NCBI RefSeq assembly: GCF_963921235.1
Contig: NC_086097.1
Coordinates: 11,470,001-11,534,000, forward strand
DNA: 64,000 nt
Origin: Mobula hypostoma
Taxonomy: Eukaryota
Direction: 5' to 3'
Translations under genes and position numbers: made by a program
Shown here: positions 7,470 through 30,040 of the stretch, one piece after another
Numbering within the stretch: the first letter of the stretch is position 1
How the letters are laid out: every line of letters starts with the position of its first letter
Notes under the pieces: model-generated
Seen by the model: the letters and a program-made list of their open reading frames with translations, nothing else
Databases searched by the model: none
What the model was told of the DNA's origin: nothing

Positions 7470-7849
7470 TGTTAGATTAATTAGCTAACTGGGAAAAATG
7501 TATTTTCAAAATGTGGGACTTTTAAGGGGCAGTTGCTGTCACTGATGAAATAGAATTTTGTCTATCTTGTACATAAATAGGAAATAACAAACTTAGAGCT
7601 TCAAATCTGTGAGGGGGGGAATTATACAGTTATCATTGTACTGTTACATTTATAAACTCTAAATTAGGTGGTAAATGGACAGTGTCACACTTGTCACCTC
7701 AAAATATCTGAACTTGCAAAGAGATGGCACCAATCTTCTGCTTTTCCATCTAACTGATTGCTCTGAATGTTCAAAGATTTGCAGATATGATTGTTTCTCA
7801 TGAAAAGTGGAAATTTAAAAAATTAATTTGGGATATAAATAAAACAACT

Positions 7850-8735: not shown

Positions 8736-8786
8736 ATCTTTTACTTATAGCTAAATTATTCTGCTTTATCCCCTTATTTCCTACAG

Positions 8787-8874
8787 TTCAAAGCTGGGTT
8801 TCTTCCCGGAAGTTGAATTATCTCGGTGTGCCCAAGTATTGGGGGTCAGGACTCTATGATAGAAATGGCAAAAG
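8787..8874 (+). CDS. VRK1: VRK1 coding exon, 88 nt (IQSWVSSRKLNYLGVPKYWGSGLYDRNGK)
   Basis: ctacag acceptor, gtatga donor; phase 1 in, phase 2 out; LGVPKYWGSG motif. Confidence 0.95.
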
Positions 8875-9277
8875 GTATGAAAAGAATCTGTGCATCATCT
8901 TCAAAACATTATTTAACTGTCTCAAGGTTATTGATAGGTGAAGGAGCATTATTAATTGACCTCGATGAGGAGGACTGGTTATGCAGTGACATTATATTTT
9001 CTCAAGTAATAATTCTATATTTTAGGCCTGAGGTGAAAATTTTATTCAGCTACAAGTAAAGTAAAATACATTTGGTGTATTATTGATGACTCATATGAGG
9101 GAGAGTTATAACTGGAGTTTCTGATTTTCATTTTGAAAATCAAAACATCATTTTGTAGATTCTGGGAATATAAAACAAAAGTAGAAAATGTTGGAAATAC
9201 TCAACAGGTGAAGTTGTATAGTTGTATCTGTAGAAAGAGAAACCAAATCAGTTTTTCAAATTGAAAGCCCTTTGTCA

Positions 9278-9865
9278 AAGTTTCATTTATTATCAAAGTA
9301 TACAACTCTGAAATTCTGAAGACTTGAAAAAAAGCCTACAGTCCAAGTCCGCATCCAACACACAGAAAACCTGGGCAACATTCTCCCTCTTCATAGCAGA
9401 GTGATCTCACCAAAGATTTAAAAAAGACAGTCTCCCCTCTCTGGCAGTAGAGCGATCTCATCGGCGATAAAAAGACGGTCTCTCCTCTCCGGCAGCACAG
9501 CAATATCCCAAAGATTAAAAAAAAACAAGCAGCTGGTGTTACGATCTCCCTTGTTGCTTAAGTCGGTGAGCAATGAAAGCTTTAATCGGCAGAATAGAGT
9601 CAGACGTTGGCTCGTGCCCGCGGTCGTCTCGCCATGAGGTTTTCGCAAGCTGCCCCTGTCTCCTGGAATCCCCTCGGAGACTGCGGAGTGCTGAATACCC
9701 ATATGATCTTCAAACTGCAAATCGTAGACTCCAACAGTTCCAGAAACACATTCAAGATGAAAAACACATGTAAAAGACATAAAAGGAGTGAAATATATGG
9801 TTCCATGGTCTATCCAGAAGACGTTGATCGAAGGAGCGTAGTACGCAGGGGCCATCTTGACCAAA
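9278..9865 (-). mobile_element. Non-autonomous LINE-derived element; related fragment at 59768-60075
   Basis: Shares catttattatcaaagtatacaac(t/c)ctgaaattct and agtcc(g/a)(c/t)atccaa..cagaaaacct with 59768-60030; minus-strand 5' end gtcaagatggcc; short internal ctc(t)ggcag..gagcgatc repeats. Confidence 0.6.
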
Positions 9866-10354
9866 GAACTGTAAAGTTCAAAGTAAGTTTATATGTCACC
9901 ATATTCAAGATTCATTTTTTTCTGGGCATTCACGGTAAGTACAAGAAGTGCAATAGAATCAACGAAACACCACGCCTAACAGAATGGACAACAACCAATG
10001 GGTAGAAGATGACAAACTCTGCAAATACAAAACAAGAAAAAAAGGAGACTGGAGAGCTTGTAAGGCTGCAGGGATAGTGGGAAGAAGATTGGCTGTGATG
10101 TAAATCTGGGGATAAGTTTTTCACATGGTTTTCCAGTCAGTAGGTGAATGGAGGCAGTTGGAGGGTAAGAACATATGCAAAAACTGCTGCAGAGCAGAAG
10201 GACATGCCCATCAGGCTAAATGTGTCATTTTTTCCCACAGAGGGAAAAAAAAACCCTGAGTGAATATTACAGTAGGGCAACTGATGCAGATTGAGAAACC
10301 AAGTTACCTGAAATTGTAGATTTTTGGACTCAAGTCATGAATTCTACAATGTGC

Positions 10355-10688
10355 CCAGAGGCATGCCTCAAGAAGACAGCATCCATCATTAAAGACCCCT
10401 CAATACCCAGGACATATCCTTCTCATTACTACCATCTGAGAGGAGGAAGTTCAGGAGCCAAAAGACCCCCACTCAATGCTTTAGGAGTAGCCCCTCCCGC
10501 CCCTCCCAAGCATTAGATTTCCGAACAGTTCATGAAATGAACTCATGAACAGTACCTTGCTACTCCCCTTTTGCACTGTATTTATTCTTGTCATTAACAG
10601 TAATTTTTATGTTTTGCGCTGAACTGCTGCACAAAACAACAAATTTCATGGCATATGTCAGGGATAATAAACCTGATTCCAATTCTGT
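10355..10688 (+). mobile_element. Rex1/Babar-like LINE 3' end
   Basis: cagcatccatcattaaagacccc...ttctcattactaccatc...aataaacctgattccaattct, homologous to 3560-3838. Confidence 0.7.
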
Positions 10689-12868
10689 GTTGGAGTGGCA
10701 TAAGGAGTTAAAGTAGCAGGCAACGAGATGCTTCAGGTCGCTCTTGCGATATGAAAGCAGGTGCTCCACAAAACATTCAGCCCACATAATATATGGTCAC
10801 CCTGGTTTTATCCTATCAGATGCGTTCTCTTCCTTTACTGTCCTGCAGCTTTACAATCTTCTTTGGTTTCTTTCTCAGTTCTGATGAAGGACTGAAATGT
10901 TGGGTATGCTTCTCTTCCCACCGTGCAGCCTGACCTGTTGAGTGTTTGTAACATTTTCTGTTTTTGTACCAGCTTTTGTTATTCTTAACATAGGAATATT
11001 AGTACTTAATGCTGCTATTGTTTTTAAATTGTGAGTATTTTTACAATCTTTCTCCTAACGATCAAATCAATCAATTTATATGCAGAGTACTTTGATAAAT
11101 CAAAATTTTATTTTGGCTTAAGTACTGTAATTTTGAACTGAGATTTAAAAACTCCAGTTATTGTACATTCTTGAAAGCTGTCATTGAATCGAAGATCATT
11201 AAAACATTAGTTTTTCAGTGTTGTACACTATCTTCAGTATAAGATGGCTGTCTTTCTGAATTGGGTATCGATGTAAAGCCTCTCCAACAAGCTAGGCAAG
11301 GTCTGTCTTCAGGGGCAATGTTACATATTCAGTCTAAATTTTCTTGCTGCCTTTAAGTGATTTTGTTGTGCAATTTCTATTCAATGCTGAATAGATCTGT
11401 CATGTATACAATAATTTATATATTTTTGTATCAACTTAAACTTTAAGAGTCATCCAAAAACACAACAGAATTAGCATGTAGGGGAAAAATTCAAGATGTG
11501 AATCTTTTGTAAGATACTAAATTGACTGCAAGGCACCAAACTTGAGGAAAAATGTTGAAGTCTAAGTATAAAAGAGGTTTCTTACAATGGTCCTAAGCAT
11601 GAGAGTGGACTGGTAAAGCTGTAGCTATTCTTGGAAATTGACATGGAATCTCATGGAGGCATTTGAAATTTTGGAGATTTTTGATTAGAGAAACTTATCT
11701 CATTTGCAGATGGGCAAGAACCTGAGCAATTGCCAAAAGAACCATAGGTGATATAAGGAGTACTTCCATGCAGCAAGTGTTAAGGTTTAGAATTTACGGT
11801 CAGGAGAAGTGATGGAGACAGAATCAATCCTGGTGTTTGGAAGGGAACTGGATAAGTAATTGAAAGGATTTGCAACACTGTAGAGATGGTGGGAGAATGG
11901 AACTAACTGGATAGAGCAGTGCATCTGCAAGGTATGCCTCCCCCCAAGCTGTAGTTTTTCTGTGACACCAAACCATTGAAAATGCAAGTTGCTTATAGTT
12001 ATCCTGAGCCACAGAAGCCTGATGGAGATTGTCCGGCAGCTGACAAAGAACTTCTAATTTGGGCTAACTTATTTTTAGCAGCAGCAACCTTGGTGGAGAT
12101 CTCAAGGTAGGAGAAGAAATCAGGTTTGAGAGGGAACTAACAGCTTTTGGTTCAACAAAGGAATGGTTGGGGGGGGGTTGACTTTTTTTTATAAGTGACA
12201 ATTTTTTAAAATTGTTCTTTTAACCATTGGTAGGGCTGTTCCCTGCAGAGCAATTGTCAGTCTAATGGCTGTCTGTGGTTGTTGACCAAATACAACTAGA
12301 TGCTGTCACCTGGCACTGAATGCTTTTGGGGAGACCAGTTTTTCTAATTTGGCAGATAGCTATCTACCAGCCTTTGCCTAATGCTGGATTAGATGTAGAT
12401 CAAGTCAAATTCAAGTTCAAGTTTATCTTTGCCTTCATACTTATCATGTGTTATGTGTACTACTGTACTTTTCACCCTGGTTCGGAGAAACGTCTTGTTT
12501 CTTTTTATTATATGGTTATACATATATAAAAAGGCAATAACCTTTGACTTCAAGTTTATTGCCATTGGGCAATACGCACACACAGACTCTCACAATTGGT
12601 AACTTAACATTGTACCACCAAGTTCTAGCTATTTCTGTGGAAAATCCACATTTCATTCTGTTGTGTATAATGCCCTTCAGACAAATGTACATGTATGATA
12701 AATTGTGTAGCAGATAGCATAATAGTAAGAATTAGTTATAATCTAATAAAAAATTAATTAGATTAAATGCCACTCACCCAGCGCATCCTTCCATGCTTTA
12801 CTGGGACATCATTCCCAAAAAAAGCAGAAGGTGCATTATGTGTTTACTTGGTTTTCTGTATTCTTCAG

Positions 12869-12977
12869 TTATAGATTTATGGTTATGGATCGATTTGGAT
12901 CTGACCTTCAGAAAATATTTGAACAAAATCATAAGATTTTCCCTAAGAAATTTGTGTTCCAGTTAGGTCTACGATTG
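12869..12977 (+). CDS. VRK1: VRK1 coding exon, 109 nt (SYRFMVMDRFGSDLQKIFEQNHKIFPKKFVFQLGLRL)
   Basis: cttcag acceptor, gtaagt donor; hinge motif YRFMVMDRFGSDLQK. Confidence 0.95.
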
Positions 12978-14479
12978 GTAAGTCGATTTCCTTTATCTGG
13001 AAGGTAACATTTTCATTATTTTAAAGATCTTTACAAAGCACCTTGATATATTTTGTGAGCAATGCTTTTAAGTCGCTTCATACATGCTGGAGAAGGATAT
13101 GAATTTCTCAGCCGATTTCTCCCAGTGTGTCTCAGAATTGCACAACTGACCCGGAAGGGGATTTAAGAAAAATCTGTCTTTGGAAGTTGATGTTTCTTGG
13201 AACGTATATATAGGTAAGGTCAAAACTTCAAGCAATTTGCAATTAGATTTGTTTCTCTAGTTCCTAGAAGCACAGTCTTGTTCTTGCGATTTAGTCCTGT
13301 TTCATGCTCAAATTCTGCTGATTTCAACCTATGCAGCAAAGTAAACTATTATGATAACCATTTCAGTTTTGAATATAACACATACTCTTTAGAAATGTCT
13401 CTGCAGCATGTACATTATTGATAAATGCTGATTATGGTTCATTGGTCTTTTATGCATACATCATAATTTATAATTGTTAGTCTTACGTTTTTGGGTAAGT
13501 ATTAATATAAAGTTTTATATGTTTGCATTTATCTGTTGGCTTAACATGGACATTTCTTGAAGAGTAACTTAATGCAGTTTGGATTTTTAAATATTTTTAA
13601 ACTGTATCTTTGTTAGGACAACTCTGACATTGTATACTGAGCATTCAAATCATTCTGTCTCCATAAACACTTAGTTGCATGCTATGGAGCCTCTTGGCCA
13701 CGTATGAATCATTGCAATACAGAACATCAACATTCTAAATTAAAATCTAATTTGCTGTAATTAAATTTGCATAAAAGCATTCCCTGCAAGCTAAGTTGCA
13801 GACTATAGTTTAAAATTAATTTTGCCTAATTAAAGACATCTTGTATATTAATATGTGCAATGGCAAAAATAAACTTTCACTGGAGCTTCATGAGCTGGCT
13901 GGCCAGGGTTCAAGCACCACCTGTGGTTCCAGGGCTTTAACTTGGATACCCCGGGCTTGGTGAATTGACTTGGATGAATTGTTATTCGGATTATTAATGG
14001 ATTTGTAACAATCTAAATTATTATAAACTTGAATAGCGTAATTAGCCGTTCATGTCATTGTTCAGTCTGGGATTGTTTCAGATGCTCTCTGAGCAACCCC
14101 CTGGGGCTTGCAGATTGAGTGCGGATGAAGACGATGATGGGTGATAAAATTGCTTCTCAGTCTTTTAAGAAAGTTGTTATAATTGAAAGGATTTTAAAAT
14201 TTCAGTTTCATGTTACATAATCTTGATTTACTTAATGTTTTCTTTCAACCTGATGAAGACATGCTATAGCTTTGTGCTGTCTATTTTTAAATTAGATTTC
14301 CCGTGCGCAATTCTGCAAACCGAATTTTTTGATAAAAACGGATAAAGATCTTGACTTGGCTTGGAGTTCTAAATTTTATGCTTCACATTGCTTGATAATT
14401 CAAAACCTAAAAATTGCTCAACTAAAATGATTCGCACTGATGTGCTTTCGTTGTTTACTGACACTTTAACCAAAGTACT

Positions 14480-17400
14480 CACTTAACAAGGTGTCATTTA
14501 CTGTATCTGGTGCTCCTGATGCAGCATGACATTGGGGACCACTTTGTAGAGCATCTCTGATCCATCGCAAAAAGTAGAATTTCCTGGTGACCAACCGTTT
14601 TAGTTCCTGACCCTATACCCGAACCAACACGTCGATCCATGGCCATCTTGCTGCCACAAGGAGGCCACTCTCAGAGCGGAGGAGCAACACCTCATATTCT
14701 GTCTTGGTAGACTCCAACCTGACAGCATGAACATCAATTTCTCCTTCTGTTAATCTTTTTATTCCTCCCCATCCCATCTTCTATTCCCCACTCTTGTCTC
14801 TCACCTCTTCTCCTGATGCCCCTCCTTCTTCCCTTTCTCCCACGGTCAACTCTCCTCTCCTATCAGGTTCCTTCTTCTCCAGCTCTTCTATCACCTATCA
14901 CCTCCCAGCCACTTACTTCATCCACCCTCCTACACCTCCCTGGCTTCACCCATTATCTTCTAGCTTGTCCTCCTCCTCTCCCCACATTTTGTATCTGGCT
15001 TTCCCCCTCCCTTTCCAGTCCTGATGAAGGATCTTGGCCCAAAAGTAAAAGTGGCAGGCCGACAAATCCAGGGCAAGCATTAAAAAGGGCCACTTTTCAA
15101 CATAATTGTATAAGGGCTAAGAGAGTTGTAAAAGAGCGCCTGAAGGCTTTGTGTGTCAATGCAAGGAGCATTCGTAACAAGGTGGATGAATTGAAAGTGC
15201 AGATTGTTATTAATGATTATGATATAGTTGGGATCACAGAGACACGGCTCCAGGGTGACCAAGGATGGGAGCTCAACGTTCAGGGATATTCAATATTCAG
15301 GAGGGATAGACATGAAAGAAAAGGAGGTGGGGTGGCGTTGCTGGTTAAGGAAGAGATTAACGCAATAGAAAGGAAGGACATGAGCCGGGAAGATGTGGAA
15401 TCGATATGGGTAGAGCTGCGTAACACCAAGGGGCAGAAGACGCTGGTGGGAGTTGTGTACAGGCCACCTAACTGTAGTAGTGAGGTCGGAGATGGTATTA
15501 AACAGGAAATTAGAAATGTGTGCAATAAAGGAACAGCAGTTATAATGGGTGACTTCAATCTACATGTAGACTGGGTGAACCAAATTGGTAAAGGTGCTGA
15601 GGAAGAGGATTTCTTGGAATGTATGCGGGATGGTTTTTTGAACCAACATGTCGAGGAACCAACTAGAGAGCAGGCTATTCTGGACTGGGTTTTGAGCAAT
15701 GAGGAAGGGTTAATTAGCGATCTTGTCGTGAAAGGCCCCTTGGGTAAGAGTGACCATAATATGGTGGAATTCTTCATTAAGATGGAGAGTGACATAGTTA
15801 ATTCAGAAACAAAGGTTCTGAACTTAAAGAGGGGTAACTTTGAAGGTATGAGACGTGAATTAGCTAAGATAGACTGGCAAATGACACTTAAAGGATTGAC
15901 GGTGGATATGCAATGGCAAGCATTTAAAGGTTGCATGGATGAACTACAACAATTGTTCATCCCAGTTTGGCAAAAGAATAAATCAGGGAAGGTAGTGCAC
16001 CCGTGGCTGACAAGGGAAATTAGGGATAGTATCAATTCCAAAGAAGAAGCATACAAATTAGCCAGAAAAAGTGGCTCACCTGAGGACTGGGAGAAATTCA
16101 GAGTTCAGCAGAGGAGGACAAAGGGCTTAATTAGGAAGGGGAAAAAAGATTATGAGAGAAAACTGGCAGGGAACATAAAAACGGACTGTAAAAGCTTTTA
16201 TAGATATGTAAAAAGGAAAAGACTGGTAAAGACAAATGTAGGTCCCCCGCAGACAGAAACAGGTGAATTGATTATGGGGAGCAAGGACATGGCAGACCAA
16301 TTGAATAATTACTTTGGTTCTGGCTTCACTAAGGAGGACATAAATAATCTTCCCGAAATAGTAGGGGACAGAGGGTCCAGTGAGATGGAGGAACTGAGCG
16401 AAATACATGTTAGTAGGGAAGTGGTGTTAGGTAAATTGAAGGGATTGAAGGCAGATAAATCCCCAGGGCCAGATGGTCTGCATCCTAGAGTGCTTAAAGA
16501 AGTAGCCCAAGAAATAGTGGATGCATTAGTGATAATTTTTCAAAACTCGTTAGATTCTGGACTAGTTCCTGAGGATTGGAGGGTGGCTAATGTAACCCCA
16601 CTTTTTAAAAAAGGAGGGAGAGAGAAACCGGGGAATTATAGACCGGTTAGCCTAACGTCAGTGGTGGGGAAACTGCTGGAGTCAGTTATCACGGATGTGA
16701 TAACACACATTTGGAAAGCAGTGAAATGATCGGACAAAGTCAGCATGGATTTGTGAAAGGAAAATCATGTCTGACGAATCTCATAGAATTTTTTGAGGAT
16801 GTAACTAGTAGAGTGGATAGGGGAGAACCAGTGGATGTGGTATATTTGGATTTTCAAAAGGCTTTTGACAAGGTCCCACACAGGAGATTAGTGTGCAAAC
16901 TTAAAGCACACGGTATTGGGGGTAAGGTATTGATGTGGATAGAGAATTGGTTAGCAGACAGGAAGCAAAGAGTGGGAATAAACGGGACCTTTTCAGAATG
17001 GCAGGCAGTGACTAGTGGGGTACCGCAAGGCTCAGTGCTGGGACCCCAGTTGTTTACAATATATATTAATGACTTGGCTGAGGGAATTAAATGCAGCATC
17101 TCCAAGTTTGCGGATGACACGAAGCTGGGTGGCAGTGTTAGCTGTGAGGAGGATGCTAAGAGGATGCAGAGTGACTTGGATAGTTTGGGTGAGTGGGCAA
17201 ATTCATGGCAGATGCAATTTAATGTGGATAAATGTGAAGTTATCCACTTTGGTGGCAAAAATAGGAAAACAGATTATTATCTGAATGGTGGCCGATTAGG
17301 AAAAGGGGAGGTGCAACGAGACCTGGGTGTCATTATACATCAGTCATTGAAAGTGGGCATGCAGGTACAGCAGGCGGTGAAAAAGGCGAATGGTATGCTG

Positions 17401-18120
17401 GCATTTATAGCGAGAGGATTCGAGTACAGGAGCAGGGAGGTACTACTGCAGTTGTACAAGGCCTTGGTGAAACCACACCTGGAGTATTGTGTGCAGTTTT
17501 GGTCCCCTAATCTGAGGAAAAACATCTTTGCCATAGAGGGAGTACAAAGAAGGTTCACCAGATTGATTCCTGGGATGGCAGGACTTTCATATGAAGAAAG
17601 ACTGGATGAACTGGGCTTGTACTCGTTGGAATTTAGAAGATTGAGGGGGGATCTGATTGAAACGTATAAAATCCTAAAGGGATTGGACAGGCTAGATGCA
17701 GGAAGATTGTTCCCGATGTTGGGGAAGTCCAGAACGAGGGGTCACAGTTTGAGGATAAAGGGGAAGCCTTTTTGGATCGAGATTAGGAAAAACTTCTTCA
17801 CACAGAGAGTGGTGAATCTGTGGAATTCTCTGCCACAGGAAACAGTTGAGGCCAGTTCATTGGCTATATTTAAGAGGGAGTTAGATATGGCCCTTGTGGC
17901 TACGGGGATCAGGGGGTATGGAGGGAAGGCTGGGGCAGGTTTCTGAGTTGGATGATCAGCCATGATCATAATAAATGGCGGTGCAGGCTCGAAGGGCCGA
18001 ATGGCCTACTCCTGCACCTATTTTCTATGTTTCTATGTTAAAACATTGACTGTTTATTAATTTCTATCGAAGCTGCCTGACCTGCTGAGTTCCTCCAGCA
18101 TTTGTGTGTGTTGCTCTGGA
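14480..18120 (+). mobile_element. Penelope-like element 3' portion (GIY-YIG remnant, pyrimidine-rich spacer, hammerhead module), split by a CR1 at 15045-18039
   Basis: 14490-14750 encodes degenerate GVIYCIWCS...LGDHFVEHL...EATLRAEEQHLIFCLGRLQPDSMNINFS; the module cagtc-ctgatga-aggatcttggccc-aaaa continues as cattgactg...ttcctccagcattt after the LINE. Confidence 0.8.
15045..18039 (+). mobile_element. Young 5'-truncated CR1-clade LINE; near-complete ORF2 (APE endonuclease plus reverse transcriptase) with one frameshift
   Basis: NARS, GITET, VYRPP, GDFN, SDH (APE); KSPGPDG, NYRPVSLTS, QHGF, YLDFQKAFDKV, GVPQGSVLGP, KFADD (RT); stop at 17946; (TTTCTATG)n tail; flanked by aaaa on both sides. Confidence 0.97.
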
Positions 18121-18273
18121 TTTATCAAGGTGTGTTTCCATGATATATCAGTCATTGCTGAAATAGGATGGGGATAATTCAGTTCAAATCTGGAAGGGAC
18201 TTTTCTTGATTCTTGAACAGTGACGAATTGATTTTAGGGTAAGCTGGCAACAAGAGAAGATGTAGCAAATCAT

Positions 18274-18485
18274 TAACGTGAGATTCTGCAGATGCTGGAA
18301 ATCCAAAACAACACACACAAAATGCTGGAGGAACTCAGTAAGTTGGGCAGCATTTATGGAAAAGGGCAAGCAGTTAATATTTCGGACCAAGACCCTTCAT
18401 AAGGACTGACAAATGGTCTCAGCATGAAACATTGACTGTTCATTTCATAGATGCTGCCTGACGTGCTAATTACTCCAGCATTTTG
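18274..18485. mobile_element. Fold-back pair of Penelope terminal modules
   Basis: caaaatgctggaggaactcag...gcagcatttatggaaa (18318-18363) versus tttcatagatgctgcc...ctccagcattttg (18443-18485); centre near 18405. Confidence 0.8.
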
Positions 18486-18523
18486 GGCTAGGAAAGACAA
18501 CATCAGCTGGGAGGTTGACCAAT

Positions 18524-18873
18524 CAACACACGCAAAATGCTGGTGGAAGTTGCCTGCCCATCGCCTCTCTATGGTGCTCCTACCGGCTTCTTCTTTCTTC
18601 CATGGCCTTCTGTCTCTTTCACCAATCAACTTCCCAGCTCTTTATTTCATCCCTCCCCCTCCAGGTTTCACCTGTCACCCGGTATTTCTCTCTCCCCTCC
18701 CACCACCTTATAAATTATTCCTCAGCTTTCTTTCTCCAGTCCTGCTGAAGGGTTTTGGCTTGAAACGTCGACTGTACTTTTTTCCTTAGATGCTGCCTGA
18801 CCTGCTGAGTTCCTCCTGCATTTTGCGTGTGTTGCTCGGGTTCCCAGCATCTGCAGATTTTCTCTTGTTTGTG
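18524..18873 (+). mobile_element. Penelope-derived element: short inverted stub, pyrimidine-rich spacer and hammerhead module
   Basis: Begins caacacacgcaaaatgctgg (inverted tail); module cagtc-ctgctga-agggttttggctt-gaaac-gtc-gactg at 18737-18774; full tail to gcatctgcagattttctcttgtttg. Confidence 0.8.
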
Positions 18874-19569
18874 GCTAACTTGACCAGTTAGTGACCCTTG
18901 GATGGCAACGGTTAAATTGTTCTGCAGTATCTAAATAATGTGGCAACATTTGTTCAACTCAAAAGAGCAGCCTTTGTATAAGATGAAGGACACCAACTGA
19001 GGAAACTGCATATTTTCAGACAAAAACAGGAATGATGGTAAAAATGAAGAGTTAATGCAATGCTAATTATCTGTAGTAACTCATTTTGAAAACAAAGTAT
19101 CGATGGGTCTTGGAGCATTTTTCAGTGAAAATTTATTTTATAACATTGGAATCTGACCTTGCTAAGTGCTTGTGCATTGACTGAGTCAGAATTTAACATG
19201 TTCCATCTGGCATGCTTGGCTTAAACTTCAAAAATAACAATTTAAAACAAAAAAAGGCTATCAAAATCCATTTATAACTTCGTCACCTAAAAATGGAGAG
19301 AGCTTCGAAGTTTTGGAGGAACTGCACAGAATTCAAAATAAACTTGGAGTAGATGCTTTTGAAGAGGACAGAAGATATCGAGCAGAAATAAATTCATATT
19401 TGAAGGGTCTGGGAGAAGAGAAATATACTTGAAGCAGTAATGATGGCCGGATTATTAAATATTTCTTAAAGTATTGCTGCAAGTGTAATGGAAACTGATG
19501 GCAATCACATTTTAATAAAAAATAAGAGCTTGGCAAGAAAGACGTACTTCAGAGTCTCAGTCTCAAAAT

Positions 19570-19770
19570 TGGTTGACACAGTTTGCATAATGCTTTACAA
19601 TGGCAGTGACCCAGTTCAATTCATACCACTGTCTATAAGGAGTTTGTATGTTCTCCCTGTGACCAAGTAAGTTTCCTCCCATTTTCCAAAGGCAGTACAG
19701 GTTACTAAGTTAATTGGACACATGGGTGTAATAGGGCGGCGCAGGCTCGTTGGGCCAGAAGGGCCTGGTA
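19570..19770 (+). mobile_element. Degenerate HE1/V-SINE-like element
   Basis: gttcaattc B-box remnant, taaggagtttgtatgttctccctgtgacc block, gggccagaagggcctg tail. Confidence 0.65.
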
Positions 19771-21060
19771 GTTAGAGCTTTATTGTCATTGCTGAGGACA
19801 GCGAGATTCAGTACTACTCCATTTAGTCTGAGTTATTTAGAATGACATTCAAGTTACAAGTGAATTAAAAACAAATAGCTCTAAATTTAAAAGAAACAAT
19901 GGCTGGTCCATTCAGGTCTTGCATGTAAAAAGAAATACAATCATTAGATATAAGATAGCATCAAGAATTCGGCCCACGTATTGCACTTAGAGATTGTCCA
20001 CTTTGTTTATGGACTATGGGGAGGAATGTAAGGAGGAGGGGGTGTGGCTTTGTTTAGTTGCACAACAGCCCTGGGGGAGAAGCTGTTTTCAGTTTGGATG
20101 TCCGTGCATGGACGTTTCTGTATCTTCTGGATGAAAGGAGATTAAACAGAAGATTACTTGGGTGGGATGAGTCCATCACAATGTTGAGAGCTGCTATAGA
20201 CATTGTGAGATGTAGATGGTTTCCATATCTGGTTGTTGTGTCCCAGTGATGTTCTGTGCAGTCCTTATCTCTCATTGAAGTGTGTTTTGGTCGATCTTGT
20301 TGCAGCTAGTGTACCATATTGTCATGCAGTATGTCAGTATGCTCTCAGTTACACATTGATAAAAGTTTACCAGCAGCATTTGGGGCAGATTTGCTCTCTT
20401 GAAACTCCTAAGATAGTACAGGTGCTGCTGTGCTATCCCTGTTGTCAAGGTGGTATTGGTGGTCCTGGAACGCACCTCTGAGATGTTCACTCCCAAGAAC
20501 TTAAAGCTGGAGGTGCTTTCCATTTGAGTAGTGGAGATCGTTTTTCTGAAGGCCTCGATTTCCTGAAATCGATAAAAATTTCTTTGTTTTTTATGTTGAG
20601 TAAAAGATTGTAGTTATTGCACTATTCAGACAATTTCTGTGCCTTCTGTCTACATACAACATAAGGATTGATAATTTTTCACTGGGATAACGAACACAGA
20701 GGTAGTGAATTCTCTGTGCAGGAAGGCTACAGAAGATCATTTGTTCTTTATATCTCAGATAGAGATGAACAGATTTTTAGATATGAAGGCAATCCAGGGA
20801 AGTTGATACAGGAAAGTGTGACTGAGCTAAAAGATTACCGAGGGCTATGGACTATTCAGAAATCTGATGGCAGAGGGCAAGTAATAGTCTTGGAAATGTT
20901 GAAAGTATGCTGTACATTCTTTATGTGGATTTGATGACGTTGGAAGGTTCTGGTGTTTGCAGACATCAGTTTCGGAGCAAGAGTGTAAAAGCTGGGCATT
21001 AGGGTAATGTGAGAAAGGCAATACCAGGTCCATCATCAGAGTATGGTACCTGCCAATGTG
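19771..21060 (-). mobile_element. Rex1/Babar-like LINE fragment
   Basis: ORF 20272..20523 SFKFLGVNIS...AQQHLYYLRSFKRANLPQMLLVNFYQCVTESILTYCMTIWY; ORF 20054..20275 DSSHPSNLLFNLLSSRRYR. Confidence 0.75.
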
Positions 21061-22449
21061 CAATTCTTTTTTACCATTTATCTCTAATCTGTAATCTAAT
21101 CTTGGTATGCATATATCACATTTCTTAAACTTCCTTTTAAAAAAAAACTGTTGTTTTTTGATCAAATGTTTATTAAATATGGTGTTTGATGATTTCAATG
21201 TACAGTATAAATTTAAATGTTTCCACATTGGTAATGCCTCTTGAACCCATACTTGTATTTGTCATCATTACCACCATGAACCAGTCTGTTCAGAGTATGT
21301 AGGCCAATGAAAAGGATACTCGTCCCACTGGCAAAACATTATCACAAACTGTGCATGCATTTTTCATGAAAATTGGATCCTTGTTGAAATAGGAAGAAGT
21401 GTATATTCAGCAGAACAGTAGGGTTAAACAAAGAGGCACCCTAATTTCATATGCACCTGAAAGGTAACTTGGATAAAGACTATGGATCAGGATTATTGCA
21501 GACATAACCTTTTGCTGATGAAATTAATCCTTGAGCACGATTCTATAAAAGTAAATACACTTCATAGCTTGGCAGAAATAAAGTTGAAGGATATGAGCAA
21601 TGTGTTGAAGATGGCCATCTGTGTCCAATGGCATGGCAAATCATGTGGAAAGTAATATTGTACAAAATGAAATGGCTGTTTGAGTGAAATCCAACAGAAA
21701 ACTAGTTGTGAAATCCAATTGCCTGATGTTCCAAAGTCTAATTTTTCGAAGGGTGAGGATAAATCATCTTGTGTAGAACTTGGGGAAAACTGTTTCCTTA
21801 GTCTTTCAGTTTTGAGGATGTGTTTTTCCCAAGGTAACAATGTTGGGCTGCTTGAAGAATTTAGGAATCCAAGTAACACATCTTTTCAGAGTATTTAAAC
21901 ACAGAAGAATATTGTCTCTAGACGGGGTATATTCAGAGCGTTTAATATAAATTGACAAAATATTACTGTACTGGATTGTGAACTTCAGGAAATTAAGATA
22001 AAAATTAATTTCTGGTGTGTGCTCCGTTTTATATTATTTTCAATGTATAAGCAAGTGGTGATGCTTTTGAACTGGGTATAGTTTATGAAGCCACATTAGA
22101 ATAAACCTAAATGTTTGGCTTCATTTGCAGCTTTTTGAGTTGATGTCCAGCTTCTGTGTATCCAAAAGAAAGTGCAGATTTCCAAAACATATCCTTTTTG
22201 TATAATTAAGAAGAAAAGTTTTTTTTAAACTTGCCCTGGAGTTCATTACAAAGCTGATTATAACACTGAACCTAATTCACAAGTCAAGACTTTTACGTAA
22301 AAGATTGAATTAGACATGCAATTTAACTTGAATATACATGTATGTTGATGAATGAAATTTCATGAAATTCATCGCATTAAAACACAATTTGCAAAATTAT
22401 CTGAATCCAAATGACCCTTCAGATTAGCTTAATTTACAATTATACTCCA

Positions 22450-22775
22450 ACTACCACAAGCGGAATTTCTGGTGGCCAGTCATTTTTATTTCTATCCCCA
22501 TTCCCATTCTGACATGTCAGTCTGTAGCCTTCCCTTTTGCCACGATGAGGCCACGCTCAGGGTGGAGGAGCAACACCTTATATTCTATCTAACTATCTTC
22601 CAACCTGATGGCATGAACATTTTCCCCTCTCCCCATTTTTTTATTCTGGTGTCTTCCCCCATCCTTTCCAGTCCTGAAGAAGGGACTCAGCCTGAAGCAT
22701 TAACTGTTTATTCATTTCCATCAATGCTGCCTGACCTGCTAAGCTCCCCTAGCATTTTATATATGTGTGTGTGTT
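22450..22775 (+). mobile_element. Penelope-like fragment (GIY-YIG C-terminus plus hammerhead module) just upstream of a VRK1 acceptor
   Basis: ORF 22472..22777 ASHF..PHSHSDMSV...CHDEATLRVEEQHLIF...QPDGMNI; cagtc-ctgaaga-aggg at 22669-22684. Confidence 0.8.
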
Positions 22776-22801
22776 AACTTGGAATTGTTTTCTTTTGATA
22801 G

Positions 22802-22894
22802 ATTGACATCCTAGAATACATCCATGACCATGAGTACGTGCATGGAGACATCAAAGCTTCCAATCTCCTCCTCAGTTACAAGAATCCAAATGAG
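22802..22894 (+). CDS. VRK1: VRK1 coding exon, 93 nt, catalytic loop ([31 protein letters not shown])
   Basis: ttgatag acceptor, gttttg donor; HGDIKASN catalytic loop. Confidence 0.95.
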
Positions 22895-22982
22895 GTTTTG
22901 TTTTTACTTTTGGATGTTATTTAATGCTATCATAAGTTACTTGCATATAGTCAAGAATAATAGAAAAGCTTACTGCATTGAG

Positions 22983-23955
22983 GTCGGTGACCAGTGGTGT
23001 GCCTCGGGGATCTGTACAGGTACCCGTGATTTTTATAAGTGACCTGAATGAGGAAGTGGAGGGATTGGTTAGTAAATTTGATGATGACACAAGGGTTAGG
23101 GATAGTGTGGAGGGCTGTCAGAGGTTACAACGGGACATTGATAGGATGCAAAACTAGGCTGAGGAATGGCAGATGGAGTTCCGGATAAGTGTTAGGTTGT
23201 TCATTTTGGTAGGTCAGATATGATGGCAGAATATAGTATTAATGGTAAGACTCTTGGCATATGGAGGATCAGAGGGATCTTGGAGTCCAAGCCCATAGGA
23301 CACTCAAAGCTGCTGTGCAGGTTGACTGTATGGTTAAGAAGGCATACAGTGCATTGGCCTGCATCAACCGTGGGATTGAATTTAAGAGCCAAGAGGTAAT
23401 GTTACAGCCATATAAGACCCTGGTCAGACCCCACTTGGAGTACTGTGCTCAGTTCTGGTCACCTCACTACGAGAAGGATGTGGAACCTATAGAAAGGGTG
23501 CAGAGGAGATTTACAAGGATGTTGCCTGGATTGAGGAGCATGCCTTATGGGAATAGGCTGAGTGAACTCTGCCTTTTCTCCTTGGAGTGGTAGAGAATTA
23601 GAGGTGTATGAGATGATGAGAGGCATTGATCATGCGGGTAGTCAGAGGCTTTTTCCCAGGCTGAAATGGCTGACATGAGAGGGCAAAGTTTTAAGGTGCT
23701 TGTAGGTAGGTACAGAGGAGATGTCAAGGGTAAGTTTTTTATGCAGAGAGTGGTGAGTGCATGGAATGGGCTGCCGGCAATGGTGGTGGAGGCAGGTACG
23801 ATAGGGTATTTTAAGAGACTCCTGGATAGGTATATGGAGCTTAGAAAAATCGAGGGCAATGGGTAACCCTAGGTAAATTCTAAAATCAGTACGTGGTTGG
23901 CACAGCATTGTGGGCTGAAGGGCCTGAATTGTGCTGTAGGTTTTCTATGTTTCTA
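22983..23955 (+). mobile_element. CR1-clade LINE 3' fragment
   Basis: QRDLGV...YKTLVRPHLEYCAQFWSPHY...VQRRFTRMLPGL; tail ttttctatgtttcta; same family as 58183-58657. Confidence 0.9.
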
Positions 23956-24009
23956 ATTCCAAACGTAGGTGCAGTTATAGGTCAGTGAATATAAAAATAC
24001 AAAGAAATG

Positions 24010-24771
24010 TTCAATGGAATATAGTGTATTGAAGTGTATGGTCGTGCACTTTGGTTGAAGAAATAAAGGAATTAACTATTTTCTAAATGGGGAGAAAATT
24101 CAAAAGTCAGAGCTGCAAAGGGACTTGGGTTCGATTCCATAAAGGTTAACTTGCAGGTTGAGTCGGTGGTAAGGAAGGCAATCGTGATGTTTGCATTCAT
24201 TTTGAGAGGACTAGAATGTAAAATGTTGAGGCTTTGAAGCATTGTTCAGACTGCACTTGGAGTATTATGAGCAGTTTTGGGCCCCTTACTTTAAGAAAGG
24301 ATGTGCTGGCGTTGGAGGGCTTCCAGAGAAATTTCACAAAAATGATCCCAGGAATGAAAGGATTAACATAAGAGGAGGGTTTGATTGCTCTGGGCCTGTA
24401 CTCACTGAAGTTTAGAAGAATGAGGGGGAAATCTCATTGAAACATATCAAATGTTGAATGGCTTGGATAGAGTGGGTATAGAGATGTTTCCTATTGTAGG
24501 GGAGTCTGGGGGCACGGTATCAGAGTTGAAGGATATCCCTTTAGAAAAGAATTAAGGAGGAATTTCTTTAGCCAGAGGGTGGTGAATCTGTGGAATTCAT
24601 TGTCACGAATGGTTACGGAGGCCAAGTCATTGGGTATATTTAACACGGAGGCTGATGCTTTCTTGATTAGTAAGCGTGTCAAAGGCAAGAGATTGGGATA
24701 ATCATGGAATGGTGGAGCAGACTCCATGGGCCTAATGGCCTAATTCTGCTCCTTTGTCTTATGGTCTTATG
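24010..24771 (+). mobile_element. CR1-clade LINE 3' fragment (second family)
   Basis: cacttggagtatt..gagcagttttgggcccctt, ttctttagccagagggtggtgaatctgtggaattc; tail gtcttatggtcttatg. Confidence 0.85.
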
Positions 24772-24868
24772 AAATGTTTAAACTAATTTTGCAGTGGGTT
24801 GGATAGGAAGACTTTGAAAAGGCGGGTGGTCGGGGAAGTATTAATTTTTGGAAGAGTAAACTAATTAT

Positions 24869-25216
24869 GGGTGGCAGGGTGAAGATGCATTCTACCAAAG
24901 GAGGTGTAAGGCATCCCTCCTTCCCTCTGTTAGCTTGCAGGTTACCTTTGTGCAAGGTTTGGCACCTGCTTAGCTTCCCGATCAGGGTCACATTCAGCCA
25001 TGGGAGTGGATGGTGCATATCATAAGTCCTGCTTATGTGACCAGTGACACTAGGCAGACAATCTCTGAAAAGTATTGATAATGGCTGAGGTCACCTGTCC
25101 TGTAAAGGCAGTGCCAGAAGATGGCAATGGCAAACCAGTTGTGTAGAAAAATTTGCCAAGAGCAATCGTGGTGACGGAATGACCACATCATACAACATGG
25201 CACATAACAAATGAAC
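24869..25216 (+). mobile_element. ~350 bp non-tRNA SINE-like element with an RTE/BovA-like motif (copy 1 of 3)
   Basis: Head gggtggcagggtg.agat; gaagatggcaatggcaaacca...tttgccaagagcaatcgtgg resembles the RTE/Bov-A ggcaatggcaacccactcc motif; homologous to 40757-41137 and 47192-47511. Confidence 0.7.
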
Positions 25217-26175
25217 AAAATTAACTGCACAATAACATTTTTAGTCCAGACCAGACAGAGTGCAAGACAATGTGGGAGAGGTTTACAGTGCATTAAACAA
25301 CGTATATCAGCTGTATGTGCAATTAATCATGTGGGGTTAGTGTTGTGGCAATAATACTTATGAGATTGGGGTAAAGAAAAGGGACAAGGGGATGAATAAA
25401 TATTCCAGGAAAAAGGATGTTCAGAAAACATAGGGAAAGAAAGAAAAGGAGGAGGGGAGGCAAATTACTAAGGTGAATTTTGCACTGTATGGCCTGAAAC
25501 AGTCAATGAGTGAAAGTGAATCAAGAAATAAAAAGACACTTTACTCAGACTGTTTTCTCAACCAGAGGATATTGAATAACTTTGTAGGGAATCTTAAGAT
25601 GAGCATAGTCCAATACTTTGTGACATCTACCCAGATATAGTCTGTGACAGCAACATTGTAAGAACTACAGGTTGGAAGAAGTTTTCTGAAGTATATTTAC
25701 AACCTCAGACAGTATATTTTGGGCCGAGTGAAGGTGACATTGCTGAATTTGGTTGCTGAAGTGAGCCAGCAAAGTGGAATAAGCTTTAATAGTGTGGCAT
25801 CCAGCAAAAACACATCACATCATCATCTGCTTTTGAAAAGCAATGAAGAAGGAAAGATATCACCCCGAGATAAAAATATCAATTGGTTAAGGGCCAATCT
25901 CAATGGTATAAGATTAGACTTGTAGTTTGGCAGGCAACATTGTAGTTGAATATTGCTATAGGTGTTTCAGCTACTTATAATAACACAGAACATTTCAGCC
26001 ATCTGGTCTTTGCTGGTCCACTGTAGAGCAATCTTACCATCTCATTCTTCTAATTTGCCTATAACCTTGCAGCTTATTTACTCCAAGGTGCCTGTCATTT
26101 TCCCTTTGGATTCTGTTCTGCTTTAACTACAACAAGCGGTGATTCACTGAGGCATTTGAACCACAGGCCTGCTTT

Positions 26176-26363
26176 TGGAATATGGGGAGGCATCTGCTGC
26201 AGACCCGTAAAGTCATAGAATGTGGAATATGGGGAAGCATCTGCTGCAGACCTGTAAAGTCATAGAAAGTGGAATATGGGGAGGCATCTGCTGCAGACCC
26301 ATAAAGTCATAGAAAGTGGAATATGGGGAGGCATCTGCTGGAGACCCATAAAGTCATAGAAAG
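26176..26363. repeat. Minisatellite, 4 x 47 bp
   Basis: Unit tggaatatggggaggcatctgctgcagacccataaagtcatagaaag starting at 26176, 26223, 26270 and 26317; head to tail with no spacers. Confidence 0.95.
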
Positions 26364-26430
26364 ATGTATGCAGAAAGGACGTACAAGCCAAAGTCATTGG
26401 AGCTGTGAGACGTCAGCACTTGCAGTTGCA

Positions 26431-27530
26431 TCATATAACCATATAACAATTACAGCACGGAAACAGGCCATCTCAGCCCTTCTAGTCCATGCCGAGCTCT
26501 TACCCTATCCTTGTCCCACTGACCTGCACTCAGCCCATAACCCTCCATTCCTTTCCTGTCCATATATCAATCCAATTTAACTTTAAACGACAACATAGAA
26601 CCTGCCTCAAACACTTCTGCTGGAAGCTCGTTCCACACAGCTACCACTCTCTGAGTGAAGAAGTTCCACCTCATGTTACCCCTAAACTTTTGTCCTCTAA
26701 TTCTCAACCCATGTCCACTTGTTTGAATCTTCCCCACTCTGAATGGAAAAAGTCTAACCACGTCAACTCTATCAATCCCCCTCATAATTTTAAACATCTC
26801 TATCAAGTCCCCCCTTAACCTTCTACGCTCCAAAGAATGAAGACCTAACTTGTTCAACCTTTCTCTGTAACTTAGGAGATGAAACCCAGGCAACATTTTA
26901 GTAAACCTCCTCTGTACTCTCTCAATTTTATTGACATCTTTCCTATAATTCAGTGACCAGAACTGTACACAGTACTCCAGATTTGGCCTTAGCAATGCCT
27001 TATACAAATTCAACATTACATCCCAACTCCTATGCTCAATGCTCTGATTAATAAAGGCCAGCAAACCAAAAGCTTTCCTCACCACCCTATCCACATGAGA
27101 TTCCATCTTCAGGGAACTAGGCACCATTATTCCTAGATCCCTCTGTTCTAAAGCATTCTTGAATGCCCTACGATTTTCCATGTATGTCCTATTCTGATTA
27201 GTTCTACCAAAATGTATCACCTCACATTTTACAGCATCAAACTCCATCTGCCATGTTTCAGCCCACTCTTCTAACTGCCCTATATCTCTCTGCAAGTTTT
27301 AAAAACCTACCTCATCATCCACAACACCACCTATCTTAGTATCATCTGCATACTTACTCATCCAATTTACCACCCCATCATCCAGATCATTAATATATAT
27401 TACAAACAACATTGGACCCAGTACAGATCCCTGAGGCACAATGCTACACACCGTCCTCCAATCTGAGACACAGTTATCCACCACTACTCTCTGGCGTCTC
27501 CCATCTAGCCGCCGCTGAATCCATTTTACT
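26431..27530 (-). mobile_element. Fairly young CR1-clade LINE 3' fragment
   Basis: ORFs 27299..27538 (PQGSVLGP...SKYADDTK) and 26567..27295 (LRPNLEYCVQFWS); antisense tail catataaccatataac. Confidence 0.92.
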
Positions 27531-27599
27531 ACTTCCATATTAATTGCATCACATTGTTATTCTGCAGTTCTACTTCCCTGTGAGGGAGAAGTGAAAGCC

Positions 27600-30040
27600 A
27601 GAGCTTCCCTAATGAATAGACAGTCAATAACCCACAAAAAGAATTGAAAAGAAAAAATGAAGTTAAGAGGCAAACTAAAACTAGGAATGGAGAATAAGAA
27701 GTATCAGAAATGGCTGGCATTAAAGGTAATCCAAAAATGCTTTATGGGCTTGTAAGCAGTTAAATGATTGAGAAGGAAGACAGTACAGTTTGGTCACCTT
27801 GTTAAAAGAAAAGACATCATTAAAACATGAAAACATTTCAGAGATTTATGAGGATGCAACCAGAGCCTGAGGTGAGTAAGGTAGGACTTTATTCCTTGAA
27901 ACCTAGGAAATTGAGTGGCCACCTTATAGGCGGTGCTACACTAGTGCTCCGCTTAGCGTGATGCTATTACAGCTAGGGGCATCAGAGATCAGAGTTCAAT
28001 TCTGATGTCGTCTGTAAGGAGTTTGTATGTTCTTCTCTGTGAACATATGTTTCCTCCTGGTGTTCTAGTTCCTCCCACATTCCAAAGATGTACTATTTCG
28101 TAGGTTATTTGAGCATGTAAAATGTCCTATGATTAGGCTACTGTTAAATACATTGGTTGCTGGGCAGTGTGTCTCATTAGGCAAAGGGCTTGTTCCACGG
28201 TGTATCTCTAAATAAAACAAAATCATGAGGGGTATTGATGGGGTGAACATGTATAGTCTTTATTCTTAGAGAGGGAGAATTAAAAACTAGAGGGCATAGA
28301 TTTAAAAGGTTAAATGAAGCAGAAGTCAGAGACCCCTGAGAAACAACTTCACATAGAGGGTGCTGCAAGTATGAAACACGTTGACAGAAAAAAATGGTTG
28401 AGGCAGGAACAATGACAGCATTTAAAGACATTTGGATGAGCTGACTCGATGGCCAAATGTCCTAATTATGCTTCTGTATCTTATGTTCACATGGATAGAA
28501 GGGATTTAGATGGTTCTGGGACTAGCTTGGTAGGCATTATAGTTGGCATGGATGGGTTGGAGCAAAGGATCTGTTTTCATTATTGTATTAGTCTGACTAT
28601 GGAGAAGAAGCTACACTTGGAGACAAACCACATAGCTGAGGTATTGAATGCATACTTTTACCAAGGAAATAAATGCTGTGAGAGCCTCAGTGTAAGTTTT
28701 AGATTCTTGATGACTAAAATCTGATCGAACAGAGATTTGGAAGACTCACTGCACTGAAACTGGACACGTCAACTGCTTCAGCTGTGATGCATCTTAAATT
28801 GCTGAGGAAAGCAAGGGAGGAATTTGAAGATGCCATGACCAAAGTCTTCCAAATCATTTTGTAGTAGTATTAATAACAACTTATTCATAGAGCATTTTTA
28901 TATAATATAGTTTAAAGTGCTCTACAGTGGGATAATGTGCAAACATGAAATAAAGGACAAAAAGATGTTAGAAGTAAGGTTAAATAGGTTTTGAACTTTT
29001 ATTTAAAAGTGTCAACAGACTCTGCATCTCTTATAATTTTAGATATTTAGTTCCATAGCTCAGGAAGGTGGCTCAAAAAAGTTGATCTGCGAATGATCTG
29101 TTGAAGGAGATTATTTAAATTTAAGAGAATAGTCTTGTAGGGGTGATGCCTGAAGATTAGCATATTTTATACCATTGTTCAAAAGAAAAACTGGAGTTAA
29201 TACCAGTTACTAAACATGTGACACTCGATAGGGAAAAATATTTAAACAATCAATTAAAATTCTTGGACTGAAACGTCAACTATTTACTCTTTTCCATAGA
29301 TGCTGCTTGGCCTGCTGAGTTCCTCCAGCATTTTGAATCTGTTGATCAAAATTAGCAGTCATTTGGGGTAAAATCTGAGGAGCAAAATCACTGCATGATT
29401 TGTTAATGCCAAATTATCAATTAAAATAGTTTTTAATGAAGTAACATAAAAGGAAGTTTAATTGGTGGTATATATTGGTTTCTAAGAAGCACATGGTATG
29501 GTGCTACATGATAGACGTGTCATCAAAGTTGAAGGCCTGTAACAGCATACATAGATAGAAAATTGACTAACAGAAAACAACAGGTTAGTAATGACAAGTT
29601 GTAATTTGGTCTAGAGGGTGGTGTACAGTGTTAGACTGTTATGAATTTCCAGTTCCTGCTGACACAAAACTTTTTCACATGGTTAAAATTTAGGAGGATA
29701 ACCTGGACCTGAAGAGAAATTGTTAGGGTGGTGTAATGGGCAGAAAGGTGGAAGATGAGACAATACTGAAAAATTTGAGATGCTATATTTATTAGGAAAT
29801 TTAAAAGTGGTGATATAAATTAAGATGCATTTCTACAAGGAGGACAGAAGCAATGTGATCTGGTGGTCTGTGCATTGTTCATTGAGACGGGTGGCAATGT
29901 TGAAATGTGAGGTTTTGTATGCACTGTGGCTGGTTGTGTTGGAGGCAAATCCAATTTGTATCTTTCAAAAGGGAGGTGGGCACTAAACTGATAGTTGAAA
30001 ATATTTACAGCATGGGCTGAGGTGCTGAAGTTGCAGTTAG
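27600..30040 (+). mobile_element. Mosaic of highly decayed CR1 fragments with small L2-like and Penelope-module inserts
   Basis: Scattered CR1 motifs (cagtttggtcacctt, aactagagggcatagatttaa, atgggcagaaaggtggaagatg); Penelope module at 29260-29345. Confidence 0.55.
27928..28222 (+). mobile_element. HE1/V-SINE-like element inserted into an old CR1 fragment
   Basis: gagttcaattct B box, tctgtaaggagtttgtatgttc block, tail tgtatctctaaataaaac; CR1 sequence resumes at atcatgaggggtattgat. Confidence 0.75.

What the first reader, a model, noticed from the sequence alone, without database searches (positions are those of the whole stretch)
18737..18774. Abundant Penelope-derived repeat reconstructs to a minimal type-I hammerhead ribozyme
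Seen: nine copies (+ at 626, 4263, 4562, 15016, 18737, 22669, 29262, 62407; - at 18371-18408) align to the consensus CAGTC-CTGATGA-A-GGGTCTCGGCCC-GAAAC-GTC-GACTG, with many differences being CpG-decay transitions. That gives stem I (CAGUC/GACUG), core CUGAUGA, one extra A, stem II (GGGU/GCCC), GAAA, a palindromic ACGU in place of stem III, and a GUC cleavage triplet. At 14480-15044 and 22450-22775 the module follows GIY-YIG remnants. Established: Penelope-like elements carry minimal hammerheads in their pseudo-LTRs, and palindromic stem III forms can work as dimers. Inference: this genome has a very high-copy ribozyme-bearing retroelement family. No copy here has a perfect core; this best-paired copy has CUGCUGA.
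Basis: partly seen in the sequence, partly recalled or inferred. Interest (0 to 1): 0.7.

Follow-up and report, generated by a model that had tools for sequence, protein, structure and literature searches.

The report
Ray Penelope stub, altered hammerhead core
This is a decayed end piece of a very abundant jumping gene in a ray genome that carries an already described kind of tiny self-cutting RNA motif; the flagged copy likely belongs to a lineage that spread with a core change known to slow such ribozymes, which would mean that cutting is not needed for the element to spread.

Summary
The repeat is real. It is the 3' pseudo-LTR of a Penelope-like element (PLE; GIY-YIG, Neptune-type linker) scattered through VRK1 introns of a ray. 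Contigs from seven related runs independently read the minimal type I hammerhead layout of Cervera and De la Pena 2014. No window copy is intact, none folds better than shuffles, and no covariation was found. Three of the nine listed copies are partial (4263 and 29262 lack the 5' half; 15016 is split by a LINE). 13 of 19 pieces run across the predicted cut site, so their templates were likely uncut. It is the majority letter (70-85% of depth, recruitment-biased) in four runs, alongside this copy's upstream context and a C7-G8 CpG signature. A6C is known from phage Bcep176 to slow Mg-dependent cleavage. Cleavage was not tested. This scan noted the family before (76 notes, at least 22 genomes) and the A6C lineage twice in this genome. 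Verdict: new member of a known kind, with one testable variant.

The parts
18737..18774 (+). Minimal type I hammerhead motif of the flagged copy: stem I 18737-41/18770-74, first core box 18742-48 with C at position 6 (18745), extra A 18749, stem II 18750-53/18758-61, GAAA 18762-65, palindromic 15.1-16.1, predicted cut between 18769 and 18770
18577..18870 (+). Whole flagged pLTR stub: pyrimidine-rich upstream part, motif, downstream hairpin region and tail
18522..18548 (-). Short inverted 3'-end piece in front of the flagged copy (PLE-type inverted 5' part)
14472..15044 (+). Longest copy, first half: GIY-YIG remnant (14490-14738), about 260 nt of pLTR, motif positions 1-29 from 15016
15045..18037 (+). 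LINE with an APE-type endonuclease frame, inserted into the GAAA box of that copy (AAAA on both sides)
18041..18123 (+). Second half of the split copy (motif position 27 onward)
22455..22786 (+). Copy with open GIY-YIG C-terminus (22457-22627), internal pLTR deletion and motif at 22669-22706 (A at free position 7)
18276..18485 (.). Head-to-head pair: minus copy 18276-18408 from motif position 1 through the tail; plus copy from about 18406-18415
4433..4639 (.). Head-to-head pair folding back at the 5' edge of the motif (minus copy 4433-4568, plus copy 4562-4639)
627..731 (+). Stub starting at motif position 2
4240..4361 (+). Partial tandem: weak 3'-half motif piece 4240-4261, then a stub from motif position 10
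8665..8732 (+). Older stub (A at position 7, deletion in the 3' half)
10665..10961 (.). Older copy: weak inverted GIY-YIG piece 10665-10772(-) (E 0.049) next to a plus-strand motif at 10875
29261..29347 (+). Stub starting in loop II
62038..62544 (+). Inverted pLTR piece (about 62038-62352, minus) joined to a plus copy with motif at 62407-62444 and tail
63854..63985 (+). GIY-YIG C-terminal remnant running towards the window end
1391..48367 (+). Host gene VRK1: eight exons found; the copies between them are intronic

Best explanation
The motif is a decayed copy of the minimal type I hammerhead carried in the end repeat of a very high-copy Penelope-like retrotransposon of rays; it likely cuts only in the source element's RNA, as a pair or with the element's protein, while the genomic stubs were likely copied from uncut RNA, and the flagged copy likely descends from a source lineage that already carried C at core position 6. 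Steps: (1) shown: motif layout, and its position on the ORF strand about 260 nt after the GIY-YIG end. (2) Shown: 5'-truncated stubs, inverted 5' pieces, two classes of 3' end. (3) Inferred from Anolis PAc: reverse transcription starts inside the RNA some 75-105 nt past the cut site and runs back through the uncut motif. (4) Inferred: copies then decay by CpG loss and do not cut the VRK1 pre-mRNA. (5) Inferred: a C6 lineage kept spreading although A6C slows Mg-dependent cleavage in other hammerheads.
For: The consensus computed from window copies fits a strict min-HHR descriptor (5-bp stem I, extra nt, 4-bp stem II), with 0 hits in 20 Mb of random sequence, and folds with stems I and II at P>=0.9. 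Clipped-end consensus from contigs of 7 runs and 6 organism labels reads the same motif. The 57-aa frame at 22457 matches a Mobula RT-thumb/GIY-YIG protein (62%, E 9e-12). That protein's 81 longer relatives are mostly RT plus thumb single ORFs, and 46 of the top 56 carry the CX2-5CxxC linker. 13 of 19 pieces span the cut site. 3' ends fall at motif positions 106-110 (4 pieces) and 126-137 (7; template capped at 137). C6 lineage: at 18745 A is only 15-31% of depth in 4 of 4 runs; C at position 7 is 21-36% and exceeds A6 depth in each run; G8>A is 4-7% (CpG signature); no substitution row for the other subfamily's upstream letters is among the 40 rows shown. In the two other core-bearing contexts the frequent variation is at free position 7 (T 40-54% against the copy's A). 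Papers: PMC4209133 (min-HHRs, inactive as monomers, weak as dimers); PMC11167929 (protein-assisted cleavage, not needed for insertion in vitro, internal RT start); PMC7151607 and PMC3088659 (A6C is slow in Mg).
Against: No cleavage test. No covariation in 11 window copies: score 0.176, 399 of 500 shuffles as high. The consensus fold energy is unremarkable (87 of 1000 shuffles as low). The nearest-neighbour model does not favour the two-site dimer: -19.9 against -25.4 kcal/mol for two monomers and -35.5 for another duplex. One weak piece (7858-7894, minus, score 41) starts at position 35, next to the cut. The C6 share is inflated because contigs are recruited by likeness to this copy; recurrent chance A>C changes in so large a family could add to it; 14 rows of that table are hidden. 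The planned control did not work: one search lists no place within about 30 nt of the stretch ends, so A6 (22677) was not counted there. Only 1 of 8 window copies readable at position 6 has C. No full-length source element was seen.
Confidence: 0.8

Rival explanations
1. The C6 core of copy 18737 is ordinary post-insertion decay; the family has one canonical core and the C excess in reads comes from seed bias plus recurrent mutation.
For: Recruitment is by likeness to the reference copy. 7 of 8 readable window copies have A6. If summed depth over-counts 31-fold, C6 depth equals only about 860 single-locus equivalents, within reach of chance in a family of some 10^5-10^6 copies.
Against: C7 depth exceeds A6 depth in 4 of 4 runs, and G8>A at 4-7% points to an ancestral C7-G8 CpG. 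The deep C6 contigs share this copy's upstream context rather than the commoner one.
Confidence: 0.12
2. The motif is only a structural or protein-binding landmark (or a fossil) in this family and never cleaves, even in source elements.
For: Copies span the cut site. A C6 lineage likely spread. In Anolis, mutant ribozymes did not affect insertion and no reads began or ended at the cut site (PMC11167929). 8 of 9 Xenopus dimers did not cleave (bioRxiv 10.64898/2026.07.22.740005).
Against: Every catalytic box is kept in the family consensus and frequent variation sits at free position 7. Related PLE motifs do cleave weakly or with protein (PMC4209133, PMC11167929).
Confidence: 0.2
3. The short copies are a non-autonomous retrozyme family that spreads through self-cleaved circular RNA monomers.
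For: Non-LTR retrozymes derive from PLE pLTRs and were found in one chondrichthyan genome (bioRxiv 10.64898/2026.07.22.740005). Copies span the cut site, as copies of a circle would.
Against: No tandem array holds the motif (0 of 5 arrays). Copies have variable 5' ends, and several reach into GIY-YIG coding sequence. The motif is minimal, not the canonical type that retrozymes carry (PMC7229834, passages).
Confidence: 0.07
4. The hammerhead-like reading is a chance product of consensus building.
For: No single window copy fits; no Rfam match; no covariation.
Against: 0 descriptor hits in 20 Mb of random sequence. Independent contigs give the same letters. The motif sits where PLE hammerheads are known to sit (PMC4209133).
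Confidence: 0.01

Closest known systems
Minimal hammerheads (min-HHR) in pLTRs of metazoan PLEs, incl. Xena, Poseidon and Neptune of fishes (Cervera and De la Pena 2014, PMC4209133; parts 1-2 of 4 read)
   Same: Type I, 5-bp stem I, extra nucleotide after A9, G10.1-C11.1, no loop III with palindromic 15.2/16.2, location in the pLTR, mostly single dispersed copies.
   Different: Host is a ray (no shark or ray term in the 2 supplementary files searched; file 1 not searchable). Stem II is 4 bp (7-8 bp in Schistosoma). Family size is likely far above the 4,000-9,000 intact motifs reported for coelacanth and Xenopus, though that counts intact motifs and this counts decayed copies. A likely C6 lineage; the core variant named in the parts read is U3-A8.
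Anolis Poseidon element PAc (Frangieh et al. 2024, PMC11167929; parts 1-2 of 4 read)
   Same: Hammerhead in the pLTR, element end some 75-105 nt past the cut site, optional tail, templates apparently uncut.
   Different: Here the endonuclease has a Neptune/Nematis-type linker, and no start codon lies at stem II of the consensus; no biochemistry here.
Neptune-clade EN+ PLEs (Craig et al. 2021, PMC8557442; passages read)
   Same: C-terminal GIY-YIG, CX2-5CxxC linker and CCHH-type residues in the closest protein, 5' truncation, inverted 5' pieces, tail.
   Different: Clade not tested by a tree against reference elements; Nematis shares the linker.
A6C hammerhead of phage Bcep176 (PMC3088659 passages; PMC7151607 part 1 of 4)
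   Same: C at core position 6.
   Different: That is a phage ribozyme with a full stem III; here it is a minimal motif in an animal retroelement, and activity is untested.
Non-LTR retrozymes (PMC7229834 passages; bioRxiv 10.64898/2026.07.22.740005 parts 1-3 of 5)
   Same: PLE-related type I hammerhead in dispersed short repeats.
   Different: No tandem units here, minimal rather than canonical motif, coding remnants attached.

Membership tests
min-HHR of metazoan PLEs | Core boxes CUGANGA and GAAA, U16.1-H17 cleavage triplet, in the family consensus | tested here: met
   (table 7)
min-HHR of metazoan PLEs | Short stem I, stem II with G10.1-C11.1 and an extra nucleotide after A9; palindromic 15.2/16.2 without loop III | tested here: met
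min-HHR of metazoan PLEs | Located in the pLTR on the ORF strand | tested here: met
min-HHR of metazoan PLEs | Compensatory changes in stems within the family | tested here: inconclusive
   None above shuffles in 11 decayed copies; a pairing-compatible U>C change at 10.4 at 5-6% of depth. Decayed copies are not expected to covary.
min-HHR of metazoan PLEs | Intact core in the flagged copy itself | tested here: not met
   C6 and two C>T changes in stem II; stem II P about 0.2
min-HHR of metazoan PLEs | Self-cleavage as dimer or with protein | not testable with these tools
   Needs in vitro assay
EN+ Penelope-like elements | Single ORF with RT and C-terminal GIY-YIG | tested here: met
   For the closest protein and its relatives; only endonuclease remnants lie in the window
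EN+ Penelope-like elements | 5' truncation, inverted 5' pieces, optional 3' tail | tested here: met
EN+ Penelope-like elements | Tandem pLTR-ORF-pLTR source element | not testable with these tools
   No genome held; no full element in the window
Neptune clade | CX2-5CxxC linker before the endonuclease and CxxC between GIY and YIG | tested here: met
   P0002; 46 of 56 and 49 of 56 relatives. The linker is not preserved in the window's own copies.
Neptune clade | RT phylogeny with reference Neptune elements | not tested
   No named reference sequences were fetched
Non-LTR retrozymes | Tandem unit-length repeats each with a complete hammerhead | tested here: not met
   none of 5 arrays holds the motif (this window only)

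The most novel reading that the evidence does not exclude
A source lineage of this ray retrotransposon multiplied to thousands of copies with an A6C hammerhead core while keeping both stems, GAAA and the cleavage triplet. Ray genomes would then hold a natural in vivo experiment showing that efficient self-cleavage is dispensable for Penelope transposition, or that the cut is gated by the element's protein or by Mn2+, as in the only natural A6C ribozyme found in the papers searched.
Probability: 0.55. Interest if true: 0.5.

Novelty: new member of a known kind. Interest (0 to 1): 0.3.

Why it matters
What PLE hammerheads do is still open (PMC8557442; PMC11167929 found them dispensable in vitro). 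A family this large, with source lineages that differ at one catalytic-core letter, lets the question be tested by comparing lineage size, age and insertion structure, and by a simple cleavage assay. The motif itself, in a further vertebrate PLE, is expected. Literature checks: 'hammerhead ribozyme' plus 'elasmobranch' gave 0 papers; hammerhead, ribozyme, Penelope, shark gave 1 review, seen as a listing only; hammerhead, A6C, catalytic core gave 3 papers, none on PLEs by title or abstract start. Lunse et al. 2017 on PLE hammerhead variants is not held and may already cover such variants; supplement file 1 of PMC4209133 and the supplements of the 2026 preprint were not seen and may list chondrichthyan motifs.

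Tried and rejected
No genome is held, so no assembly-wide count. Rfam: 5 chance-level matches, no hammerhead. Exact-pattern scans found nothing in metagenome contigs, viral contigs or prokaryote genomes, so no intact outside copies could be aligned. Covariation test negative. Dimer folding did not favour the active dimer. Target-site duplications: best 13-mer matches of 8-10 letters in 9 insertions, within the random range (88 of 2000 random pairs reach 10 or more), so none is claimed. Expression: no RNA holder listed as such; runs X9 and X18 are guessed RNA contigs and say nothing on transcription, strand or RNA ends. Summed contig depth is not a copy number; it gives only bounds of about 4.5e4 to 1.4e6. 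The A6 control fell in the unreported edge zone. The excess of TG over CA at C11.1-G12 (7 against 2) is not significant (p 0.18). The protein-representative job was still queued and gave no result.

Full report
Setting. The window is vertebrate DNA from a cartilaginous fish, most likely a ray. Eight exons of VRK1 lie on the plus strand between 1391 and 48367; five match the Mobula hypostoma protein at 92-100%. No whole genome is held.

The observation. A single-sequence nhmmer search finds 13 further copies, 10 with E<=2.4e-7, and a profile finds nothing in reversed or shuffled controls. Six of the nine listed copies cover the motif. 4263 and 29262 start at about positions 10 and 17. 15016 is the first half of a copy split in its GAAA box by a ~3-kb LINE; the second half is at 18041. 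CpG decay is clear: three CpG sites show CG, TG and CA states, and 15 of 43 differences (14 of 37 without LINE letters) fall on them. A consensus computed from the window fits a strict minimal-hammerhead descriptor that had 0 hits in 20 Mb of random sequence; no window copy fits it. The consensus folds into stems I and II with pair probabilities of 0.9 or more, although its energy is not unusual (87 of 1000 shuffles as low). Six real copies fold no better than shuffles (z -0.63 to +0.80). Rfam has no match, and there is no covariation among 11 copies.

Independent evidence from related genomes. Twenty runs hold part of 21500-24000. On 18690-18880, 70,886-78,206 contigs per large run were laid. 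Their clipped ends, which are not aligned to my reference, give stem II, GAAA, the palindrome, the cleavage triplet and the 3' strand of stem I. On 22648-22742 the clipped ends give the canonical first core box onward. The family is very large: 14 copies in 64 kb is about 220 per Mb, and summed depth bounds it only loosely, between about 4.5e4 and 1.4e6 (the tool warns that depth is no copy number).

It is a Penelope-like element. The open 57-residue frame at 22457 matches Mobula LOC134353856 (62%), which holds YIDD, a CX4CxxC linker, CxxC between GIY and YIG, and two histidines. Its 81 longer relatives are mostly single RT-thumb ORFs of 750-1100 residues; 46 of the top 56 have the linker. By the description in PMC8557442 (passages) this is the Neptune/Nematis type; I built no tree. 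The motif lies on the ORF strand about 260 nt after the stop in the longest copy. Copies are 5'-truncated, some have inverted 5' pieces or fold back at the front of the motif, and 3' ends fall in two groups, positions 106-110 and 126-137. These are the known PLE insertion marks. The motif equals the min-HHR of PMC4209133 (parts 1-2 read), reported there in fish Xena, Poseidon and Neptune elements, inactive as a monomer and weak as a dimer.

How it likely works. In the Anolis element PAc, reverse transcription starts inside the RNA 111-118 nt into an ORF whose start lies 26 nt before the cut. Cleavage there needs the protein and is not needed for insertion (PMC11167929, parts 1-2). The geometry here is similar, with ends 73-104 nt past the cut. 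13 of 19 pieces run across the cut site; three start at positions 1-2; one weak piece starts at 35. I infer that uncut RNA is the usual template and that the stubs are dead on arrival. Ten motif-bearing insertions lie sense in the VRK1 region up to 29.4 kb, which fits harmless copies. Whether source elements cleave is untested; folding energies do not favour the active dimer, but that model ignores core contacts.

The flagged copy. In one search, A is read at 18745 in only 17, 18, 15 and 31% of depth in four runs. C at position 7 is read in 21-36%, more than A6 in every run, and G8>A in 4-7%, as expected if C7-G8 was a CpG. Depth without A at position 6 is about 178,000 in X1, against a median of 6.6 for long single contigs. 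The deep contigs carry this copy's upstream context. So a source lineage with C6, likely with C7 too, is the best reading, and the window copy has T7 by CpG decay. I rate this about 85%. Against it: recruitment favours letters of the reference copy; 14 rows are hidden; worst-case over-counting brings the count to about 860 loci; 7 of 8 readable window copies have A6; and my control at 22677 fell in the unreported edge zone. Position 7, the free core position, has three common states (T, A, C), which fits selection on the core in source elements but is also subject to seed bias. A6C is a natural variant of phage Bcep176, with k(obs) below 0.1 per min (PMC3088659, passages) and a strong preference for Mn2+ over Mg2+ (PMC7151607, part 1).

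Earlier notes. I reached the C6 idea before looking (note). The scan holds 76 notes on this family in at least 22 genomes and two on the A6C lineage in this genome. They are unchecked and are not counted as evidence.

Verdict. Real, correctly interpreted, and a new member of a known kind. Interest 0.3, carried by the size of the family and the testable C6 lineage.

Noticed in passing
window 14986-15018, 18707-18739, 22639-22671, 62377-62409: In copies that reach upstream, a pyrimidine tract (74-84%) ends in CAG, the first three letters of stem I, like a 3' splice site. In Drosophila virilis Penelope the intron ends at the 5' end of helix I (PMC4209133). Splicing could remodel stem I or explain copies that start at the motif's front.
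   Followed up: partly
window 627-62544: All 9 strongly scoring single-motif insertions have the motif on the plus strand, which is the VRK1 sense strand (post hoc p 0.004); with weak pieces added it is 11 of 14 (p 0.057). One window only.
   Followed up: partly
window 15045-18037: A ~3-kb LINE with an open APE-type endonuclease frame (Pfam PF03372) sits inside the GAAA box of a PLE copy, with AAAA on both sides, so it is younger than that copy.
   Followed up: partly
window 4433-4639 and 18276-18485: Two head-to-head fold-back pairs of about 210 nt that turn at the 5' edge of the motif.
   Followed up: partly
window 26176-26363: Four tandem copies of a 47-nt unit, 95% alike.
   Followed up: no
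window 1391-48367: Eight VRK1 coding exons on the plus strand; the gene starts before the window and its last exons were not located.
   Followed up: yes
window 18775-18860: The sequence downstream of the motif forms a long predicted hairpin and holds the deepest contig coverage of the stretch (18795-18815); a candidate for the protein-binding and RT-start region.
   Followed up: partly
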